The position numbers were made by a program, and so were the translations under genes. Source: Bifidobacterium breve (GTDB taxonomy: Bacteria; Actinomycetota; Actinomycetes; S36-B12). From it: a stretch of DNA of 44,697 nucleotides. Shown here in pieces: positions 1,654 to 37,292 of the stretch. The notes beneath the pieces were generated by a model. The model saw only the letters and a list, made by a program, of their open reading frames with translations, was not told the DNA's origin and searched no databases. The stretch spans positions 1-44,697 of the forward strand of contig CAMDKJ010000003.1 of the NCBI GenBank assembly GCA_945900705.1, given 5' to 3'. The first letter of the stretch is position 1. Each line of letters starts with the position of its first letter.

Positions 1654-1815
1654 CTACATTCCACATTGTCTCACAAAACTCTCGTCACAATAGGCCGCGG
1701 AAGGGTTTAGTGTGCCGCCGATACCGGCCACACCGGACCGCACCCAACCAACACCGAGTGCGAGCCGATCAGATGGCGCTGAACTTACTGGGGTAGCAAC
1801 ATCAATATTTGGCAT
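1654..1815 (-). CDS. Small peptide gene 1 of the array (53 aa; conserved leader plus core AAYCDESFVRQCGM)
   Basis: Translated by hand; below the ORF track cutoff. GGAG 6 nt before the ATG; leader almost identical to copy 5. Confidence 0.7.
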   Translation of the reverse strand: MPNIDVATPVSSAPSDRLALGVGWVRSGVAGIGGTLNPSAAYCDESFVRQCGM

Positions 1816-1940
1816 TTAGTGCTCCGTCCTTCTCGTTGTTGTGATCTATTACTTCGTTGATAGGTGTGAACTTCTTTTAGTTGAGCGGTCAGGGGCCAGC
1901 AACAGGGTTTAAACACCCCACCTAGCGGTAGGAAAGGGTG

Positions 1941-2126
1941 CTACTCTTCATTACCCTCAAAGCAGCTTCCCCCGTTGAGACCTTCGCCGTACGTATTTAG
2001 TAGGGTGAAGGAGGGGTTTAGGGTGCCGCCGATACCGGCCACACCGGGCCGTACCCAACCAACACCGAGTGCGAGCCGATCGATCGGTACTGAAGTCACT
2101 GGCGAAGTGACATCACTATTTGGCAT
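1941..2126 (-). CDS. Small peptide gene 2 (61 aa; core FTLLNTYGEGLNGGSCFEGNEE)
   Basis: ATG (MPNSD) at the repeat boundary, preceded by GGAG; same leader as the other copies. Confidence 0.7.
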   Translation of the reverse strand: MPNSDVTSPVTSVPIDRLALGVGWVRPGVAGIGGTLNPSFTLLNTYGEGLNGGSCFEGNEE

Positions 2127-2316
2127 CTCATGCTCCAACAGGTCAAAGGGCCAATACCCAAGCGGGCATCTGTAAATGATGGTAGAACACTCCCGACCTA
2201 AAACCAAGGGTTTAGCAAAAGGTTCCCAAGTGCGAAGATGCGTGCAGGGGTAACGGGGCTACCTGTGAGCCGTAGGTTCGACTCCTACTACTTGGAGCGT
2301 TCGAGTTCACTACCGC

Positions 2317-2354
2317 AAACAACTGGCCCCAGACCAACGGCGGTCAGGGGCCAG
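2317..2354 (-). terminator. Putative intrinsic terminator downstream of peptide gene 3
   Basis: Minus strand reads CTGGCCCCTGACC-GCCGTT-GGTCTGGGGCCAG followed by TTGTTT. Variants at about 2835-2872 and 3292-3329; one arm is missing in the copy at 1884. Confidence 0.6.
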
Positions 2355-2447
2355 CAACAGGGTTTAAACACCCCACCTAGCGGTAGGGAACGGAGCTACT
2401 CCTCATATTACCCCCAAGGGTCTCGCTCGGCTGTACAAACAGAACTC

Positions 2448-2615
2448 TCAGATGTGATACCCCCAAGGCTCCCGCGGTGCTGAACAAATAGAACTCTCAG
2501 AGGGGTTTAGGGTGCCGCCGATACCGGCCACACCAGTGCGCACCGAACTAACACCGAGAGCGAGCCGATCAGTTGGTGCTGAACTTACTGGGGTAGCAAT
2601 ATCAATATTTGGCAT
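2448..2615 (-). CDS. Small peptide gene 3 (55 aa; core ESSICSAPREPWGYHI)
   Basis: ATG (MPNID) preceded by AAAGGA; conserved leader. Confidence 0.7.
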   Translation of the reverse strand: MPNIDIATPVSSAPTDRLALGVSSVRTGVAGIGGTLNPSESSICSAPREPWGYHI

Positions 2616-2912
2616 CAGGTTTACGTCCTTTGCGTCAGTAAATGTGGAAACGCTAGCGGCGCCAAGATGGGCCGCTGATTTAATTGGAACACCAAACCCG
2701 GCAAATGGCAATAAGCGCGGCCGTCGAAAAAGGTGCCAGGCACTTTTCCCATTACCCCCGCAACCATTGACACCTGGCCAGCACCGGGGCCACTAAAACT
2801 TAGACCACCAGGGGTGTTCGAGTTCACTCTCCGTTTACAACTGGCGCCAGACCAACAGCGGTCAGGGGCCAGCAACAGGGTTTAAACACCCCACCTAGTA
2901 GCGGGGAAGGGG

Positions 2913-3101
2913 CTACTCTTCAGTTCCCTCAAAACACCAGCTCCCCGAACTGCACCGCCCCATACATTTGAAGGCCCACTCATTAGAGGGGTTTAGCGTG
3001 CCGCCGATGCTTGCCGCACCGGGGCGCACCCAACCAACACCGAGTGCGAGCCGACCGATCGGCGCTGAACTAACTGGTGAATTAACGTCGGTGCTTGGCA
3101 T
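2913..3101 (-). CDS. Small peptide gene 4 (62 aa; core NEWAFKCMGRCSSGSWCFEGTEE)
   Basis: In the ORF track; GGAG before the ATG; conserved leader. Confidence 0.7.
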   Translation of the reverse strand: MPSTDVNSPVSSAPIGRLALGVGWVRPGAASIGGTLNPSNEWAFKCMGRCSSGSWCFEGTEE

Positions 3102-3377
3102 TTAGCGCTCCAATCGTTAGGCAAGCCAATACCCAAACGGGCACCGGTAACTCATATTAAAACACGTCCGACCAAAAACCAAGAGCCTAGTAACATTTTC
3201 TGAGGTGCGAAGATGCGCCCGTGCATAAAGGGGCTACCTGTGCGACGTAGGTTCGGCTGTTACCACTTGGAGTATTCGAGTTCACTACCGCAAACAACTG
3301 GCCCCCAACCAACAGCGGCCAGGGGCCAGCAACAGGGTTTAAACACCCCACCTAGCGGTAGGAAAGGGTGCTACTCT

Positions 3378-3533
3378 TCATCCATAACTTAAGCACGCCC
3401 CACTACAACCAAGGTAGGAGGGGTTTAGGGTGTCGCCGATACCGGCCACACCGGACCGCACCCAACCAACACCGAGTGCGAGCCGATCAGATGGCGCGGA
3501 ACTTACTGGGGTAGCAACATCAATATTTGGCAT
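3378..3533 (-). CDS. Small peptide gene 5 (51 aa; core YLGCSGACLSYG)
   Basis: ATG (MPNID) preceded by AAAGGA; conserved leader. Confidence 0.7.
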   Translation of the reverse strand: MPNIDVATPVSSAPSDRLALGVGWVRSGVAGIGDTLNPSYLGCSGACLSYG

Positions 3534-3676
3534 CAGATTTACGTCCTTTGCGTCAGTAATTGTGGAAACGCTAGCGGCGCCAGGGTGCGCTACTGACTTC
3601 ATTGGAACACCGAACCCGGCAAAAGGCAATAGCAAAACGCCAAACAACTCCCGGTGACCGAAAGTCGCTAATGAAC

Positions 3677-4444
3677 CTAACCGGGCCTGCGAACTGGAGC
3701 GATGAAATCTTTGATCGCCCGTGCCGTGCCTGCTGGGTGCTCCACAATACTGAGGTGGCCGGCGCCGGCGATTTTCACTTCCTGACCGCGGCGCAGCACT
3801 TGCAACATAGCCATCTGGTCAGCCTCGGGACTCAGCGTGTCACCGGTACCCCAAAGTATGAGCACCGGGATATCAAGTGCACCGAGTGTTGTCAGTGATT
3901 CTGCTCGATCGGCCATCGCCTGCTGATACCAAGCAACTGCCTTTGGGCCCGCATCATCTAGCCAAGCGGACACCTGCGCAACAACTTCTGGCCGGGTGTC
4001 ACGGGTAACCTGACCGAGAAGCCCAGCGAGCATCGCCTGCTGCAAAATCCGACCACACTCCTGTGGGTTTTCGGTGACGGCCTTGGCCATCCGAAATCTA
4101 TTTTCGCGGGCTAACTCAGTGTCGGCACTGGCCTTGGTGTCACAGCAGATGGCCGCTGTAAACATTTCGGGGCGTTTGCGCAGCATCGCCATCGCGACGT
4201 ATCCACCAAGTGAGATCCCCCCGAGTACTGCACGCTCGATCCCGCGGTGATCCAGGTCCGCAAGAATCGCATCAGCTACCGAGTCAATACTGGGAGCCCC
4301 CGGCAACAAGTCCGTGCCACCAAAGCCTGGCAGATTAGGTACGTGAACCTGCCAGCCAGCGGCAGCAAGTATCTCGGCTTGAGGTTCCCAAAGCCGGGCA
4401 TCGAAGGGAAATGCGTGCAATAACACCACTGTTTGTCCGCTCAT
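3677..4444 (-). CDS. Alpha/beta fold hydrolase
   Basis: LLHAFP oxyanion motif, GISLGG nucleophile elbow, C-terminal AGHL. Confidence 0.9.
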   Translation of the reverse strand: MSGQTVVLLHAFPFDARLWEPQAEILAAAGWQVHVPNLPGFGGTDLLPGAPSIDSVADAILADLDHRGIERAVLGGISLGGYVAMAMLRKRPEMFTAAICCDTKASADTELARENRFRMAKAVTENPQECGRILQQAMLAGLLGQVTRDTRPEVVAQVSAWLDDAGPKAVAWYQQAMADRAESLTTLGALDIPVLILWGTGDTLSPEADQMAMLQVLRRGQEVKIAGAGHLSIVEHPAGTARAIKDFIAPVRRPG

Positions 4445-5184
4445 AGATCACTCCAGCGTTCCATCGGCCCAGCCCATTGGTGCGGAAGAGGCCACGCGTG
4501 TGGTGCGACCCGCTTGACGATCTCGTCAATGGCGGCGCGAACATTTGTCTCCCCCACCCACAGGTGCTTGGCGCCGGCGACCGCGATGACTTCGGCCTGC
4601 GGAATAATCGAGAACCTAGGGCGCGCAGCTTCAGGGGCCAGGTAATCATCGAGCTCGGGTACCACGCAGGTAAGGGCCCGACCGGTTTCAGCCCAGGTGA
4701 GTAGATCCGAATCGGTGGCAAAACGCAGCGGTGGCGAGAGGAGAATTGCACCACGCACCGGATCCAAATTGCCATGCCGCAAAATCACATCGGTACCAAA
4801 TGACCATCCCACCAGCCACGGGGCTGGAAGTGATCGGGCTTCGATCTCGCCGATGGCAGCCTGTAGGTCGAGGCCTTCGCCGCGCCCATTGTCAAATTCG
4901 CCTTCACTTTGCCCAGCCGCACTTTGAGTGCCTCGAGTATTGAATCGCAACACCGCGATATCGGCGAGTGCCGGCAATCGCCAAGCCATCTTGCGCAGCA
5001 CGTGACTATCCATCATTCCGCCGTGTGTGGGTAGCGGATGCACGCAGACGATCGAAGCCACCGGCGTATTGCGCTCGGGTAGCGCTAATTCGCCAACAAG
5101 TCTTAATCCGTCCGACGTCGTCAGCGTTAGTGGTATTCGTAGCGCCGGCAGCACTGAATTCGCGACGATACTTGCGGTAGTCAT
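4441..5184 (-). CDS. Alpha/beta fold hydrolase (conserved actinomycete type)
   Basis: HPLPTHGGMM and GWSFG motifs. Start moved to the ATG at 5184 to avoid overlapping the upstream gene. Confidence 0.88.
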   Translation of the reverse strand: MTTASIVANSVLPALRIPLTLTTSDGLRLVGELALPERNTPVASIVCVHPLPTHGGMMDSHVLRKMAWRLPALADIAVLRFNTRGTQSAAGQSEGEFDNGRGEGLDLQAAIGEIEARSLPAPWLVGWSFGTDVILRHGNLDPVRGAILLSPPLRFATDSDLLTWAETGRALTCVVPELDDYLAPEAARPRFSIIPQAEVIAVAGAKHLWVGETNVRAAIDEIVKRVAPHAWPLPHQWAGPMERWSDL

Positions 5185-8022: not shown

Positions 8023-10028
8023 GGATTTGGCAATGCCGGCATCGATTTCGCAGCACGGACAGTGTCGACGATGGCGCGCATAATCACGGTGGCGTCGTAA
8101 TCCTTCGGCGTAAACACCGCGGCCACCCCGCGCTCACGCAACCAGGTGGCGTCGGCGTCGGGAATGATGCCACCAACGACAACGGGCACCTCGCTTAGGC
8201 CGCGGGCTCGTAAGCCATCAACCACCGCAGGCACTAATGCTCGGTGTGATCCGGACAAAATAGATAGCCCGACGACGTCAACATCCTCGGCAACGGCCGC
8301 CGCCACGATCTGCTCAGGGGTCAACCGGATGCCCTGATAAATTACTTCGAATCCAGCGTCGCGGGCTCGCACCGCTATTTGCTCAGCGCCATTTGAGTGC
8401 CCGTCTAGGCCAGGCTTGCCAACAAGGAGGCGAAGTGGCGACCCACATTCGCGGGAAGTGATCTCGACCGCCTGCCGCACCTCGGCCAAATCCGAACTAA
8501 CCGACCCCACCACGCCGCTAATACCGGTTGGCGCCCGATACTCACCAAAAACCTCACGGAGGGTGGAAGTCCACTCACCGGTGGTGACACCGGCTCGGGC
8601 ACATTCGATGGTCGCACTCATCAAGTTCGCTGAAGTTCTAGCTTTCGCCTGTAGTTCGGCCAGTGCCGTCGCAACGCGGGTGTCATCGCGTGCGGCCCGC
8701 CAAGACTGAAGGTCCGCAATCGCCTGGGATTCAACTTCAGGATCAACAACAAGCACCGCCGAATCAAGATCAGCTAACAGCGGGCTGGCCTCGCTCTCTT
8801 GAAACGCATTAACTCCAACGACTATCTGCTCACCCGATTCAATTCGAGTGCGCCGCTCAGAGTGCGCTTGCACCATCTGCTGCTTCATATAGCCACTGTC
8901 AACCGCCGCGACCGCGCCACCTAGACCCAGCACATAGTCAAGTTCGGCGGTTGCCTCGGCAAGCATTTCAGTCACGATCTTTTCAACAACAACTGAGCCG
9001 GTGAAGAGATCGTCGTACTCCAGCAGATCGCTCTCGAATGCAAGTACTTGTTGAATGCGAAGTGACCACTGCTGATCCCACGGTCGCGGCAGACCTAATG
9101 CCTCGTTCCAGGTCGGCAGTTGGATCGCCCGCGCTCTGGCGTCCTTTGACATAGTGACAGCGAGCATCTCAAGAACTATTCGTTGCACATTGTTTTCAGG
9201 TTGCGACTCGGTCAAGCCCAGTGAATTAACCTGTACGCCGTATCTGAACCTGCGCTGGTCTGGGTTCTGCACTCCGTACCGATCCAAAGTAATGCGATCC
9301 CACATTTCAACGAACGCACGCATTTTGCACATTTCCTCGACGAAGCGCACCCCAGCATTAACGAAGAAGGAAATCCGGGCAACAACGTCACCGAAGTCAT
9401 CCGGGGCCACCTGCCCCGAATCGCGAACGGCATCCAATACCGCAATTGCGGTACTCAACGCATAGGCGATTTCTTGGACGGGAGTCGCCCCAGCCTCTTG
9501 CAGGTGGTAACTGCAGATATTTATCGGGTTCCATTTGGGAATGTTCTGCACCGTATAGGTGACCATGTCCGTGGTCAACCGCAAGGATGGCCCTGGTGGA
9601 AAAACGTAGGTGCCGCGCGATAGATACTCCTTGATGATGTCGTTCTGGGTTGTGCCCTGCAATAAGTTGGCCGGTACGCCAGCGTCTTCGGCGGCAACCA
9701 CGTACAGGGCTAACATCCACATCGCAGTTGCATTGATGGTCATGGAGGTATTCATTTTGTCGAGTGGGATGGCATCTAATAGCATCCGCATATTGCCTAA
9801 GTGCGCAATCGGTACCCCAACTTTGCCAACCTCGCCAAGGGCCATCGGCGAATCCGGGTCGTAACCGGTTTGGGTGGGCAGATCAAATGCCACCGACAGC
9901 CCGGTCTGCCCCTTGGCTAAATTGCGCCGATACAGGGCATTGGACTCACCCGGTGAAGAGTGACCGGCATATGTCCGGATTAACCAAGGTTTGTCCTTGC
10001 GGCGCGAGTTGTCCTTCGAGGCGGTCAC
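8013..10028 (-). CDS. meaA: B12-dependent acyl-CoA mutase, MeaA/ethylmalonyl-CoA mutase type
   Basis: [23 protein letters not shown], and B12-binding [11 protein letters not shown]. Start reassigned to the GTG at 10028. Confidence 0.9.
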
Positions 10029-37219: not shown

Positions 37220-37292
37220 GCCTCCGTAGCTCAGGGGATAGAGCGCCGGTTTCCGGTACCGACGGTCGCAGGTTCGAATCCTGCCGGGGGCA
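37220..37292 (+). tRNA. tRNA-Arg(CCG)
   Basis: Acceptor GCCTCCG/CGGGGGC, D arm GCTCAGGGGATAGAGC, anticodon loop TTCCGGT, T arm GCAGG-TTCGAAT-CCTGC. CCA not encoded. Confidence 0.95.

What the first reader, a model, noticed from the sequence alone, without database searches (positions are those of the whole stretch)
1654..3533. Hidden array of five peptide genes with a constant leader and hypervariable Cys-containing core (orphan RiPP-like precursor library)
SEEN: five 116-bp repeats without indels each begin with a minus-strand ATG preceded by GGAG or AAGGA. Each encodes about MPNxDVxxPVSSAPxDRLALGVGWVRxGVAGIGGTLNPS (39 aa). Similarity ends abruptly after NPS, followed by cores AAYCDESFVRQCGM, FTLLNTYGEGLNGGSCFEGNEE, ESSICSAPREPWGYHI, NEWAFKCMGRCSSGSWCFEGTEE and YLGCSGACLSYG. 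Many leader differences are synonymous in this frame (Thr ACA/ACC/ACG, Pro CCT/CCC, Val GTG/GTA, Arg CGG/CGC, Ala GCA/GCT, Ser TCA/TCC). Every core has Cys downstream of Ser/Thr (SAAYC, SFVRQC, SYLGC-SGAC, SESSIC, SSGSWC) and aromatic residues. KNOWN: conserved leader, hypervariable core and conserved 3' flank is the layout of combinatorial RiPP precursors such as prochlorosins and cyanobactins. INFERENCE: these are substrates for one promiscuous maturase encoded elsewhere. IGG could be a double-glycine cleavage site, though copy 5 has GD. I do not recognise the leader as any named family. Alternatives are signalling peptides or an LDR/SIB-like type I toxin-antitoxin repeat array.
Basis: partly seen in the sequence, partly recalled or inferred. 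Interest (0 to 1): 0.9.

Follow-up and report, generated by a model that had tools for sequence, protein, structure and literature searches.

The report
Dispersed cyanobactin-type peptide precursor library
The five small genes belong to a family of about thirty scattered through a small freshwater actinobacterial genome, each with a constant leader, a highly variable middle and a constant tail, and they most likely feed one cyanobactin-type enzyme set encoded elsewhere, so that one cell can make a whole library of modified peptides.

Summary
Five minus-strand genes (starts 1815, 2126, 2615, 3101, 3533) share a 39-codon leader without indels. The same genome holds 29 copies on 14 contigs. Three of the five window copies lack that tail. 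The frame is under purifying selection (dN/dS 0.35, against 1.2-1.3 in the other sense frames). No Pfam, NCBIfam or Rfam family matches. Contig C22 of the same genome carries a cyanobactin-type cluster: a PatA-type protease, a second PatA/PatG-family protease, a ThcOx-type oxidase, a LynD/TruD-type YcaO cyclodehydratase, a sulfotransferase-RRE fusion and an MFS exporter. All 9 of 301 genomes of the order that hold the peptide family also hold this protease family; none of the 286 without the proteases holds the peptides. In one relative a precursor gene lies directly upstream of the PatA gene. The tail resembles a published cyanobactin C-terminal recognition sequence (FAGDDAE). The second protease lacks the capping helices needed for macrocyclisation, so linear thiazol(in)e-ended products are as likely as rings. 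This is a new variant of a known kind. No product chemistry is shown.

The parts
1654..1815 (-). Copy 1, 53 aa: leader 1699-1815, then AAYCDESFVRQCGM. It has no FEG tail and no conserved 3' flank.
   Evidence: It is 98% identical in DNA to the copy in relative L069, whose surrounding region is 90% identical. An RNA-library contig matches 1600-1745 without mismatch.
1941..2126 (-). Copy 2, 61 aa, canonical: leader 2010-2126, core FTLLNTYGEGLNGGSC 1962-2009, tail FEGNEE 1944-1961, stop 1941-1943.
   Evidence: The same core is found in public proteins P0001 and P0004. An RNA-library contig matches 1936-2036 without mismatch.
2448..2615 (-). Copy 3, 55 aa: leader 2499-2615, then ESSICSAPREPWGYHI. 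It has no tail. A 44-nt tandem duplicate (2409-2452 and 2458-2501) spans its stop.
   Evidence: (family D5).
2913..3101 (-). Copy 4, 62 aa, canonical: leader 2985-3101, core NEWAFKCMGRCSSGSWC 2934-2984, tail FEGTEE 2916-2933.
   Evidence: Its orthologue in L069 has one core change. RNA-library contigs cover 2912-3045 and 2980-3130 with 2-3 mismatches.
3378..3533 (-). Copy 5, 51 aa: leader 3417-3533 (IGD in place of IGG), then YLGCSGACLSYG. The stop falls where the tail would lie.
   Evidence: An RNA-library contig matches 3352-3463 without mismatch.
1864..1938 (-). Conserved 3' flank of copy 2. It is cut short and does not fold better than shuffles.
   Evidence: family D4, 71% identity; z 0.02.
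2319..2393 (-). Conserved 3' flank of copy 3, with a G+C-rich stem-loop (about 2322-2355) followed by UUGUUUG. Terminator-like.
   Evidence: family D4; -48.7 kcal/mol, z -5.26, 0 of 200 shuffles fold as well.
2837..2911 (-). Conserved 3' flank of copy 4, with the same stem-loop in weaker form.
   Evidence: family D4; -35.1 kcal/mol, z -2.18.
3294..3368 (-). Conserved 3' flank of copy 5, with a stem-loop at about 3297-3330.
   Evidence: family D4; -45.7 kcal/mol, z -3.96; one search lists a terminator-like site at 3328-3316.

Best explanation
The five genes are precursor peptides (the counterpart of PatE) of a cyanobactin-type RiPP pathway whose enzymes lie on another contig (C22) of the same genome.

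Inferred sequence of events:
1. The leader, whose deepest-conserved part is AP-x-DR-L-x-L-G-V-x-W-V-R-P, docks on the RRE domain of the LynD/TruD-type YcaO cyclodehydratase. This enzyme turns the invariant last Cys of the core, and probably the other Cys residues, into thiazoline.
2. The ThcOx-type oxidase may oxidise thiazoline to thiazole.
3. The PatA-type protease cuts after the (T)LNPS site.
4. The second PatA/PatG-family protease cuts between the modified Cys and the FEGNEE tail.
5. An MFS pump exports the product.
6. A sulfotransferase-RRE fusion and a possible HprK-like kinase may decorate the peptide while the leader is still attached.

The second protease lacks the capping helices of true macrocyclases. 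I therefore put a linear peptide ending in a thiazol(in)e carboxylate at about 55% and an N-to-C ring at about 35%.

One enzyme set thus serves 22-47 dispersed precursor genes per genome.

Shown here: the coding status of the genes, their family size and anatomy, the enzyme families present, co-occurrence, and adjacency in one relative. Inferred: every chemical step.
For: Coding status:
- dN/dS is 0.346 in frame, against 1.34 and 1.16 in the other sense frames, over 28 leaders.
- An SD-like motif precedes 160 of 168 copies, against 13% of random 17-mers.
- 152 of 168 unique complete peptides reach the tail in frame although cores span 7-20 residues.

Family size: 29 copies on 14 contigs. There are 1106 public 90%-identity clusters, and every source name seen among the 120 listed reads 'hypothetical' or 'unannotated'.

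Enzymes on C22:
- Two hits to TIGR03895, the PatA/PatG cyanobactin maturation protease family: 736 and 452 bits against a cut-off of 421. Both carry PatG_D and PatG_C domains.
- ThcOx plus nitroreductase domains.
- YcaO plus TOMM leader-binding domains.
- Sulfotransferase plus PqqD domains.
- An MFS transporter.

Nearest solved structures: protease 1 matches PagA/PatA at 282-284 bits against 133 for PatGmac. The YcaO protein matches LynD at 488 bits and TruD at 470. The oxidase matches CyaGox at 145 bits.

Co-occurrence in a 301-genome sample of the order:
- The peptide profile hits 9 genomes.
- The protease family passes its cut-off in 15 genomes, which include all 9.
- None of the 286 other genomes has the peptides.
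- In genus g3 only 1 of 10 genomes has either feature, and it is the same genome, G273.

Adjacency: in G273 (L128) a precursor at 9285-9458 lies on the same strand directly upstream of the PatA gene.

Anatomy:
- P1 before the tail is Cys in 148 of 152, Thr in 2 and Pro in 2. PatG-type enzymes need a thiazoline or proline there (PMC5708355, passages).
- The FEGNEE tail resembles the published PagG recognition sequence FAGDDAE (bioRxiv 10.1101/2020.03.17.996157, passages).
- Across 23 divergent members the invariant columns are M1, P9, two Arg and the Cys-Phe junction. The Pro of NPS is nearly invariant.
- A sister genus has two-cassette precursors of the form core-C|FADE-VETS|core-C|FSDDA.

Predicted complex of the YcaO protein with the peptide: weak support.
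- Score 0.54, best control 0.00. The mark was reached by 58 of 80 solved complexes and 2 of 110 mismatched pairs.
- At 0.60 or under it was reached by only 7 of those 80, and by both mismatches that passed.
- The runs agree in at least 50% of contacts, and partner pLDDT is at least 36.
- A like complex is already solved: entry 4v1t, which I recall as LynD with a precursor peptide. The pass may therefore come from memory.

Other RiPP enzyme families (LanC, MNIO, C39, SPASM) were not found in this 76%-complete genome.

Contigs from RNA libraries of three studies contain these genes, including the unique cores of copies 1, 2, 4 and 5.
Against: - No product has been seen.
- In this genome and the six others of its genus, the fetched parts of the cluster contigs hold no precursor gene. 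The local scan found none in five of the relatives. In the sixth and in this genome only the listed hits and the contig listing show none. The link therefore rests on co-occurrence among related genomes (three genera, so few independent events), on one adjacency, and on motif likeness.
- 6 of the 15 genomes with the proteases lack this peptide family. G108, of the same genus, has the cluster but only leader-truncated remnants.
- The second protease lacks the roughly 32-residue capping-helix insert. Its Asp-His spacing is 35, against 70 in chain 4aks, and the spacing is 34-37 in all 12 such ORFs that a pattern picked out in 8 of 10 loci. A defining cyanobactin step, macrocyclisation, is thus doubtful.
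- Three of the five window copies lack the tail and may not be substrates.
- The N-terminal cleavage motif I compare with, G(L/V)E(A/P)S, is recalled and was not seen in any paper passage I read.
- The antisense frame that shares wobble positions also gives a low dN/dS (0.415).
- The complex prediction is only weak.
- RNA-library contigs cannot show strand or exclude DNA carry-over.
Confidence: 0.8

Rival explanations
1. Same precursors and enzymes, but the products are true N-to-C macrocycles like classical cyanobactins. Some other element would then shield the acyl-enzyme in place of the capping helices, for example the C-terminal PatG_D/PatG_C domains or the conserved 126-aa protein.
For: The Cys, Thr or Pro at P1 and the acidic F-x-G tail are exactly what macrocyclases use. 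Protease 2 shares the HCAFC and NWC motifs with PatGmac and PagGmac and scores 204-206 bits against them. Core lengths of 7-20 residues would suit rings.
Against: The capping helices are described as necessary for PatG ligase activity (PMC6010433, passage) and as the element that binds RSIII. They are absent here and in all 12 such ORFs that a pattern picked out in 8 of 10 loci.
Confidence: 0.3
2. The peptides are unrelated to the C22 cluster. They would be unmodified secreted signals or class II bacteriocin-like peptides, cut at the IGG double glycine by a transporter-linked peptidase.
For: IGG is present in 4 of the 5 window copies. Within this genus the genes lie far from the cluster.
Against: Gly-Gly is kept at that place in only 4 of 23 divergent members, whereas the Cys-Phe junction is invariant. 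No C39 peptidase was found, although the genome is only 76% complete. There is strict co-occurrence with the protease family and an adjacency in G273.
Confidence: 0.06
3. The repeat is a non-coding element (a small RNA, or a REP- or MITE-like repeat), and the ORFs are incidental.
For: The copies are dispersed and multi-copy, they break the assembly (8 of 14 contigs have a copy within 1.2 kb of an end), they carry a conserved 3' stem-loop, and the antisense frame is also open.
Against: Purifying selection is frame-specific. Start codons and SD motifs are present. 152 of 168 peptides keep frame through a core of variable length to a conserved tail and stop. Rfam finds nothing.
Confidence: 0.03
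4. The genes form a type I toxin-antitoxin array, with small toxic peptides and antisense RNAs, like Ldr or Sib.
For: They are tandem small genes with a conserved 5' part.
Against: The leader reads as lacking the unbroken hydrophobic stretch of a membrane toxin. This is judged by eye from the sequences and no predictor was run. The variable part is Cys- and Gly-rich (16% and 13.5%). There are 22-47 copies per genome. The copies co-occur with RiPP enzymes.
Confidence: 0.02

Closest known systems
Cyanobactins with heterocycles (pat, tru and similar pathways: PatE precursors with PatA, PatD, PatG and an oxidase)
   Same: The enzyme families match: a PatA-type protease, a PatA/PatG-family second protease with PatG_D and PatG_C domains, a fused E1-like/YcaO cyclodehydratase (LynD 488 bits) and a ThcOx-type oxidase. 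The precursor logic matches too: a leader, an N-terminal site ending in Ser, a hypervariable core ending in Cys, and an acidic C-terminal recognition tail. Multi-cassette precursors occur in a sister genus.
   Different: The host is a freshwater actinobacterium, whereas the class is described as cyanobacterial (PMC4603692, passage). The leader matches no known model. There are 22-47 precursor genes spread over the genome, against up to 10 in a cluster (PMC4663559, passage). The second protease has no capping helices. The cluster adds a sulfotransferase-RRE fusion and a possible HprK-like kinase.
Prenylagaramide pathway (PagG and its recognition sequence FAGDDAE)
   Same: The tail motif F-x-G followed by acidic residues is very close to FEGNEE. 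PagA is the best PDB match of both proteases.
   Different: The pag cores end in Pro and that pathway has no heterocyclase. Here cores end in Cys and a YcaO enzyme is present. PagG has capping helices.
Linear cyanobactins (aeruginosamides, viridisamide)
   Same: If the second protease only hydrolyses, the product would be a short linear peptide ending in a thiazole, as I recall for these compounds. The review passage I saw says only that linear cyanobactins exist (PMC4663559).
   Different: I found no prenyltransferase or methyltransferase in the cluster. I could not check whether the G proteases of those pathways have capping helices.
Prochlorosins (many ProcA genes, one ProcM) in marine picocyanobacteria
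   Same: The genome logic is shared: dozens of dispersed precursor genes with a constant leader and hypervariable cores, served by one promiscuous enzyme set in a small planktonic genome (abstract of PMC10783134 seen in listing; the rest recalled).
   Different: The chemistry and families differ. No LanC-like protein was found and no Nif11 or NHLP model matches. Here the machinery is YcaO plus subtilases.
Actinomycete 'cyanobactin-like' polyazoles (curacozole, aurantizolicin, YM-216391)
   Same: These are actinobacterial RiPPs made by a YcaO and an FMN oxidase.
   Different: [quoted passage not shown] This cluster does contain them.
Paeninodin-type lasso peptide tailoring module (HPr-kinase homologue, sulfotransferase, PqqD/RRE)
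   Same: The fusion's C-terminal domain matches lasso PqqD chaperones (NF033536; TbiB1 5v1u). The 265-aa neighbour looks HprK-like in the ESM Atlas (0.93, a lead only). Such kinase and sulfotransferase genes flank lasso clusters (PMC8498205, passages).
   Different: There is no lasso cyclase or B2 protease here, and the module sits inside a cyanobactin-type cluster. The function of the 265-aa protein is not established: no Pfam hit and a poor AF2 model.

Membership tests
Cyanobactin pathway | PatA-type N-terminal subtilisin-like protease | tested here: met
   C22 3-1985: TIGR03895 at 736.5 bits (cut-off 421), with PatG_D and PatG_C domains. PagA/PatA at 282-284 bits against PatGmac at 133. The D, H and S triad motifs are present.
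Cyanobactin pathway | PatG-type C-terminal protease of the same family | tested here: met
   C22 2572-4608: TIGR03895 at 451.9 bits (cut-off 421), with PatG_D and PatG_C domains. PatGmac/PagGmac at 204-206 bits, with shared HCAFC motif.
Cyanobactin pathway | Macrocyclase insert (capping helices) between the catalytic Asp and His of the G protease | tested here: not met
   The alignment to 4aks and 4h6x skips chain residues 85-116. Asp-His spacing is 35, against 70 in the chain. The spacing is 34-37 in the 12 ORFs that a pattern found in 8 of 10 loci searched. A structure model to confirm this (job) never finished.
Cyanobactin pathway | Precursor with a leader, a hypervariable core, and flanking N- and C-terminal recognition sequences | tested here: inconclusive
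   The layout and the conservation pattern fit. The tail resembles the published FAGDDAE. Cleavage at these sites is not shown, and no precursor model matches.
Cyanobactin pathway | A heterocyclisable residue or proline at the last core position | tested here: met
   Cys 148, Thr 2 and Pro 2 of 152. The requirement is stated in PMC5708355.
Cyanobactin pathway | PatD/TruD/LynD-type fused cyclodehydratase (present in heterocycle-containing members) | tested here: met
   TIGR03604 at 255.6 bits and TIGR03882 at 87.2 bits, both over their cut-offs. LynD at 487.8 bits and TruD at 470.2 over nearly the full length.
Cyanobactin pathway | Producer is a cyanobacterium | tested here: not met
   The record titles of relatives name Nanopelagicales, Actinomycetota or acSTL MAGs. 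The order-level sample is actinobacterial.
Cyanobactin pathway | The modified peptide product is observed | not testable with these tools
   No chemistry is available.
Prochlorosin-type lanthipeptide library | Nif11/NHLP-type leader and a LanM/LanC-domain synthetase | tested here: not met
   No NCBIfam or Pfam hit for the peptides. PF05147 was not found in the genome, but that search's control found it in none of 14 genomes and the genome is 76% complete.
Double-glycine leader peptides (class II bacteriocin or C39-exported) | A conserved GG, GA or GS cleavage motif and a C39 peptidase-ABC transporter | tested here: not met
   Gly-Gly is kept in 4 of 23 divergent members. PF03412 was not found in the genome, while its control found it in 7 of 14 genomes.

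The most novel reading that the evidence does not exclude
A genus of small-genome (about 2 Mb) planktonic lake Actinobacteria keeps 22-47 dispersed, individually conserved precursor genes. RNA-library contigs from three studies contain them. One PatA/PatG/YcaO enzyme set serves them all, and its second protease has lost, or never had, the macrocyclisation cap. The result would be a natural combinatorial library of short, thiazol(in)e-ended, possibly sulfated peptides. That would be a distinct RiPP subclass and the first prochlorosin-style library built on cyanobactin machinery outside cyanobacteria.
Probability: 0.55. Interest if true: 0.8.

Novelty: new variant of a known kind. Interest (0 to 1): 0.72.

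Why it matters
Cyanobactin enzymes are prized because short recognition sequences let them process almost any core. Here nature seems to exploit that on a genome-wide scale in an abundant group of lake bacteria.

- **Scale of the library.** In the set examined, 136 different cores occur among 152 tailed peptides. Public data hold more than 1100 peptide clusters at 90% identity.
- **A second model system.** This gives a second case, independent of the prochlorosins, for asking why streamlined plankton maintain large peptide libraries.
- **A natural test of the capping helices.** The pathway offers a natural PatG-family protease without capping helices, which bears on what those helices do.
- **A possible new tool.** The sulfotransferase with its own RRE is a candidate leader-guided peptide sulfation tool.
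- **A gap in genome mining.** The precursor genes lie far from the cluster and match no model, so they would probably escape routine annotation. In public records, every source name seen among the 120 listed reads 'hypothetical' or 'unannotated'.

Tried and rejected
Tools that gave nothing usable:
- Pfam and NCBIfam on the five peptides gave nothing, apart from one sub-threshold SMIM43 hit at E 0.19.
- Rfam, at gathering and at E-value thresholds, found nothing in the region.
- The sigma-70 scan found 0 sites and its terminator count was no higher than in shuffles. Actinobacterial promoters are not covered by that scan.
- LanC, MNIO, C39 and SPASM families were not found in the own genome, which is 76% complete. 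The LanC control found nothing in any of its genomes, so that negative is weak.

Structure and annotation attempts:
- The AF2 model of the 265-aa protein was poor (mean pLDDT 54, 7-row alignment), so no fold search was run on it. Pfam at E 10 gave nothing for it or for the 126-aa protein. The ESM Atlas gave nothing useful for the 126-aa protein (0.80).
- The structure job for the catalytic domain of protease 2 had not finished at the last of 16 polls. The missing capping helices therefore rest on sequence alignment alone.

Searches for precursors near other clusters:
- A scan for tail-bearing small ORFs in 13 cluster loci of relatives found one real case, in L128. The precursors of the six protease-bearing genomes that lack this family were not identified.

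RNA evidence:
- In X15 and X16 no contig lay on the flanking genes (1400-1567 and 3668-3900). Lack of cover proves nothing, and contig depths cannot rank genes.

Selection on cores:
- The dN/dS of 0.25 for cores between look-alike pairs is biased low, because the pairs were chosen by at least 70% core identity. I use it only as a hint.

Literature:
- Three papers could not be read because they are not held: PMC4384831, PMC3462482 and PMC10294700. The PatA site motif and the effect of deleting the PatG insert are therefore partly recalled.
- Searches for a prior description found none. Supplements are closed.
Full report
**1. The observation.**
The window holds five direct repeats of 127 nt at 1699-1825, 2010-2136, 2499-2625, 2985-3111 and 3417-3543. 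They are 80-91% identical to the reference copy. The alignment shows no indel over the 117 nt that follow each minus-strand ATG.

From copy 1 to copy 5, the parts after the leader read:
- AAYCDESFVRQCGM
- FTLLNTYGEGLNGGSCFEGNEE
- ESSICSAPREPWGYHI
- NEWAFKCMGRCSSGSWCFEGTEE
- YLGCSGACLSYG

A 75-nt 3' flank is repeated behind copies 2-5 (family D4). In three of the four it folds into a strong G+C-rich stem-loop followed by UUGUUUG. The z-scores are -5.3, -4.0 and -2.2, and the flank behind copy 2 is cut short (z 0.0). Each gene therefore looks like its own small transcription unit.

**2. The family is much larger than the window.**
A protein search of the window's own assembly gave 31 matches at E <= 10. 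The assembly is 1.78 Mb in 215 contigs, 75.7% complete, with G+C 57%. Of the 31 matches, 29 had E <= 5.4e-12. My own extraction found 29 copies on 14 contigs. They occur as singletons and as arrays of up to five, and 8 of the 14 contigs have a copy within 1.2 kb of a contig end, so the repeats break the assembly. Neighbouring ORFs, read by eye from their translations and not searched, look like ordinary housekeeping genes.

With 29 copies the real layout appears. A 39-residue leader is followed by a hypervariable stretch and then a constant end, C-F-E-G-N-E-E plus stop.
- Of 27 complete copies, 22 end C-F-E-G-x-x-x.
- One has P-F-E-G-N-E-E and one has C-F-S-N-E-E.
- The three with no such tail are window copies 1, 3 and 5.

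**3. The genes are coding.**
- Over 28 full leaders, pooled Nei-Gojobori dN/dS is 0.346 in the proposed frame, and 1.34 and 1.16 in the other two sense frames. Variation is twice as high at third codon positions (0.168 against 0.079 and 0.077).
- One antisense frame also scores low (0.415). It is the frame that shares wobble positions with the sense frame. It has no conserved start, and its start codons in the five window copies fall in or beside the variable part.
- I pooled the own genome with 93 loci of relatives, which gave 168 unique complete peptides. Of these, 152 reach an F-[EADV]-[GA] tail in frame although the core varies from 7 to 20 residues. Roughly one third would be expected to keep frame if the DNA were not translated.
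- 160 of 168 copies have an SD-like motif at -20 to -4, against 13% of random 17-mers.
- Start codons among 170 complete copies are ATG in 152 and GTG in 15.
- Rfam finds nothing here.

**4. No named family.**
Pfam and NCBIfam give no hit for any of the five peptides at E <= 10, apart from one sub-threshold chance-level hit. The 5.8-billion-protein collection holds 1106 clusters (at 90% identity) with E <= 0.01. Every source name seen among the 120 listed reads 'hypothetical' or 'unannotated'. A profile search of the 50%-identity representatives gives 61 proteins at E <= 1e-3 and 33 at E <= 1e-10. In species-representative genomes the family occurs in about a dozen freshwater actinobacterial MAGs. 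Their record titles say Nanopelagicales, Actinomycetota, acSTL or acI-Baikal, and a few lake MAGs carry an evidently wrong species label.

**5. The enzymes.**
Contig C22 (locus L115) of the same genome carries the genome's only YcaO hit and two of its three subtilase (Peptidase_S8) hits. In gene order the contig holds:
- A PatA/PatG-family cyanobactin maturation protease at 3-1985. TIGR03895 scores 736.5 bits against a cut-off of 421, and the protein has Peptidase_S8, PatG_D and PatG_C domains.
- A 126-aa protein of unknown function.
- A second protease of the same family at 2572-4608 (451.9 bits).
- A 767-aa oxidase with ThcOx and nitroreductase/SagB domains.
- A 265-aa protein of unknown function.
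- A sulfotransferase fused to a PqqD-type RRE.
- On the other strand, a 755-aa protein with a TOMM leader-binding domain (TIGR03882) and a SagD/YcaO cyclodehydratase domain (TIGR03604), both over their cut-offs.
- A DHA2-type MFS exporter, followed by ribosomal protein genes.

Against solved structures:
- Protease 1 is clearly of the N-terminal (A) type: PagA and PatA at 282-284 bits against the PatG macrocyclase domain at 133.
- The cyclodehydratase matches LynD (488 bits) and TruD (470 bits) over nearly its full length.
- The C-terminal half of the oxidase matches CyaGox, entry 5lq4 (145 bits).
- The sulfotransferase domain is nearest to the glycopeptide sulfotransferases Teg12, Teg14 and StaL and to aryl sulfotransferases. 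Its C-terminal domain is nearest to the lasso RRE TbiB1.

An APS kinase gene is present, so PAPS can be made. The 265-aa protein looks like an HPr-kinase-family protein to the ESM Atlas (0.93, 196 of 256 features). That is a lead only: Pfam finds nothing and the AF2 model is poor.

**6. The link between peptides and enzymes.**
I searched a sample of 301 genomes of the order.
- The peptide profile hits 9 genomes: all 7 genomes of the window's genus including the window's own, one genome of genus g3 (G273), and, weakly, one of genus g10 (G140).
- TIGR03895 passes its curated cut-off in 15 genomes, which include all 9.
- None of the 286 genomes without the proteases has the peptides.
- In genus g3 only 1 of 10 genomes has either feature, and it is the same genome.

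These genomes are kin, so they amount to few independent events.

The cluster keeps its gene order from the PatA gene to the cyclodehydratase in five relatives of the genus and in G273. The exporter follows in the five.

In G273 (L128) a canonical precursor gene at 9285-9458 lies on the same strand directly upstream of the PatA gene. The longest ORF of that gene starts at 9465, and homology to PatA begins at about 9645. In the window's own genome C22 begins only about 86 nt before the likely start of the PatA gene, so what lies upstream is unknown.

With a single-protein query at E <= 1e-6, copy numbers are 47, 27 and 22 in three relatives of the genus and 4 in G273. In G108 the count is 0: that genome has the cluster but only leader-truncated remnants.

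A predicted complex of the cyclodehydratase with the peptide gave weak support.
- The score was 0.54 (three runs: 0.49, 0.55, 0.54), with a best control of 0.00.
- The mark was reached by 58 of 80 solved complexes and by 2 of 110 mismatched pairs. At 0.60 or under it was reached by only 7 of the 80 and by both mismatches that passed.
- The runs agree in at least 50% of contacts, and partner pLDDT is at least 36.
- A like complex is already solved: entry 4v1t, which I recall as LynD with a precursor peptide. The pass may therefore reflect likeness to it.

**7. Anatomy read against cyanobactin rules.**
In cyanobactin biosynthesis the A protease cuts after an N-terminal recognition sequence (RSII). 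The G protease cuts before a C-terminal one (RSIII) and joins the ends (PMC4663559, passages). PatG-type enzymes need a thiazoline or proline directly before RSIII (PMC5708355, passages). Published RSIII sequences are AYDGE and SYDD for PatG and FAGDDAE for PagG (bioRxiv 10.1101/2020.03.17.996157, passages).

In this family:
- The residue before the tail is Cys in 148 of 152 peptides, Thr in 2 and Pro in 2.
- The tail F-E-G-N-E-E is close to FAGDDAE.
- Across 23 divergent members (36-64% identical to copy 2) the invariant columns are Met1, Pro9, the Arg of D-R, the Arg of V-R-P and the Cys-Phe junction. The Pro of N-P-S is nearly invariant.
- A sister genus has precursors with two cores, of the form ...C|FADE-VETS|...C|FSDDA (P0277; L142 2228-2419). 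That is a C-terminal site joined to an N-terminal site between cassettes. This is how I recall multi-core PatE to be built, and the review confirms that each core is flanked by RSII and RSIII.

The exact PatA motif that I compare NPS with, G(L/V)E(A/P)S, is recalled. I did not see it in a paper.

**8. Where it departs from the model.**
The second protease shares the HCAFC and NWC motifs with the PatG and PagG macrocyclase domains. It scores about equally against those domains (204-206 bits) and against PagA (210 bits). Its alignment to chains 4aks and 4h6x breaks into two pieces that skip chain residues 85-116. The catalytic Asp and His are 35 residues apart, against 70 in the chain. The skipped stretch should be the capping helices, which the preprint places at Pro579-Val605 of PatG. 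The numbering offset of the chain is my own estimate.

All 12 PatA/PatG-type ORFs that a pattern picked out in 8 of 10 loci of this clade have spacings of 34-37. The helices bind RSIII and shield the acyl-enzyme and are called necessary for ligase activity (PMC6010433, passage). I therefore rate plain hydrolysis, giving a linear product, as somewhat more likely than cyclisation. A structure model meant to confirm this did not finish.

**9. Expression.**
Contigs assembled from RNA libraries of three studies (X15 and X16; X17; X18) lie on the region. They include pieces that match unique parts of the window copies:
- 1600-1745, no mismatch (core of copy 1)
- 1936-2036, no mismatch (core and tail of copy 2)
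- 3352-3463, no mismatch (core of copy 5)
- 2912-3045, 2 mismatches (core of copy 4)
- 2980-3130, 3 mismatches (copy 4)

Contigs cannot give strand or level, and DNA can be present in RNA libraries. This is consistent with transcription but does not prove it.

**10. Evolution.**
- The orthologous site in a related MAG (L069, 90-94% identical in its flanks) has three cassettes where the window has five. The difference equals one 975-nt double unit.
- Copy 1 is 98% identical between the two genomes, more than its surroundings. So despite lacking the tail it is not obviously decaying.
- Between genomes, 33 look-alike pairs in 23 groups keep their cores while their leaders drift. One example is the core FCCCWSG[LM]CGCAC under leaders that differ at many positions.
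- Pooled dN/dS for those cores is 0.25, but the pairs were chosen by core identity, so the figure is biased low.

The picture is a library of distinct, individually maintained peptides rather than a region under constant scrambling. In the set examined, 136 different cores occur among 152 tailed peptides. Cores are rich in Cys (16%) and Gly (13.5%). Among the cores, 54 have one Cys, 59 have two and 27 have three. Tyr occurs in 84 of 152.

**11. Comparison and novelty.**
The enzymes place this in the cyanobactin kind, but three things set it apart.
- The host is an actinobacterium. The known actinomycete 'cyanobactin-like' clusters lack exactly these proteases (PMC11575548, passage), and cyanobactins are described as products of cyanobacteria (PMC4603692, passage).
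- It combines dozens of dispersed precursor genes per 2-Mb genome, a G protease without the cap, and a leader-guided sulfotransferase, perhaps with a kinase. That tailoring module is otherwise known from lasso peptide clusters (PMC8498205, passages).
- The genome-wide library most resembles the prochlorosins.

Five full-text searches found no description of this family or cluster. Supplements were closed and subscription journals are mostly not held, so an earlier mention cannot be excluded. I class it as a new variant of a known kind.

**12. Limits.**
- No chemistry is shown.
- The cleavage sites, heterocyclisation, product topology and sulfation are all inferences.
- The co-occurrence rests on three genera.
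- The genome is 76% complete, so absent families are 'not found'.
- The status of window copies 1, 3 and 5 is open.

Noticed in passing
L142 (G140:C6) 1133-1372 and 2228-2419; protein P0277: A sister genus has precursors of the same family with two cores in one peptide. The cores are separated by a tail-plus-N-site junction (FADE-VETS, or AAEVETS), as in multi-cassette cyanobactin precursors.
   Followed up: partly
L141 (G108:C40) 1339-1569: One genome of the window's genus has the full enzyme cluster, but only remnants of the peptide family were found. The N-terminal half of the leader is replaced by unrelated sequence, while WVRPG...TLNPS, the core and CFEGNEE are kept.
   Followed up: partly
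window 2409-2501: A 44-nt tandem duplication at 84% identity (family D5) spans the end of copy 3. The second copy repeats the core in altered form and runs into a stop. It looks like a recent slip that may have cost this copy its tail.
   Followed up: partly
window 1884-3390 against L069 2435-2969: The array differs in cassette number between close relatives (five against three). The difference equals the 975-nt two-cassette unit, which points to unequal recombination between cassettes.
   Followed up: partly
L115 (own contig C22) 6919-8929: A 265-aa protein with an HPr-kinase-like signature (ESM Atlas lead only) lies next to a sulfotransferase fused to a PqqD-type RRE. This is a lasso-peptide-style tailoring module inside a cyanobactin-type cluster. 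An APS kinase is present elsewhere in the genome (C35).
   Followed up: partly
L134-L139 (G203, G227, G257, G297, G218, G281): Six further genomes of the family have related PatA/PatG clusters but no member of this peptide family. Their precursors were not found and may form other leader families.
   Followed up: no
window 1712-1819, 1975-2175, 2512-2796, 2968-3105, 3430-3657 (+ strand): The frame antisense to all five leaders is also open and shares wobble positions with the sense frame (dN/dS 0.415). I take this as a by-product of codon usage, but it was not tested further.
   Followed up: partly
loci L031, L035, L037, L039 and others: Several lake-water MAG records that carry this family bear the title of a gut Bifidobacterium species. 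That does not fit their content and looks like a labelling error in the public record.
   Followed up: no
window 37220-37292: A tRNA gene is the only Rfam match in the 44.7-kb window.
   Followed up: no
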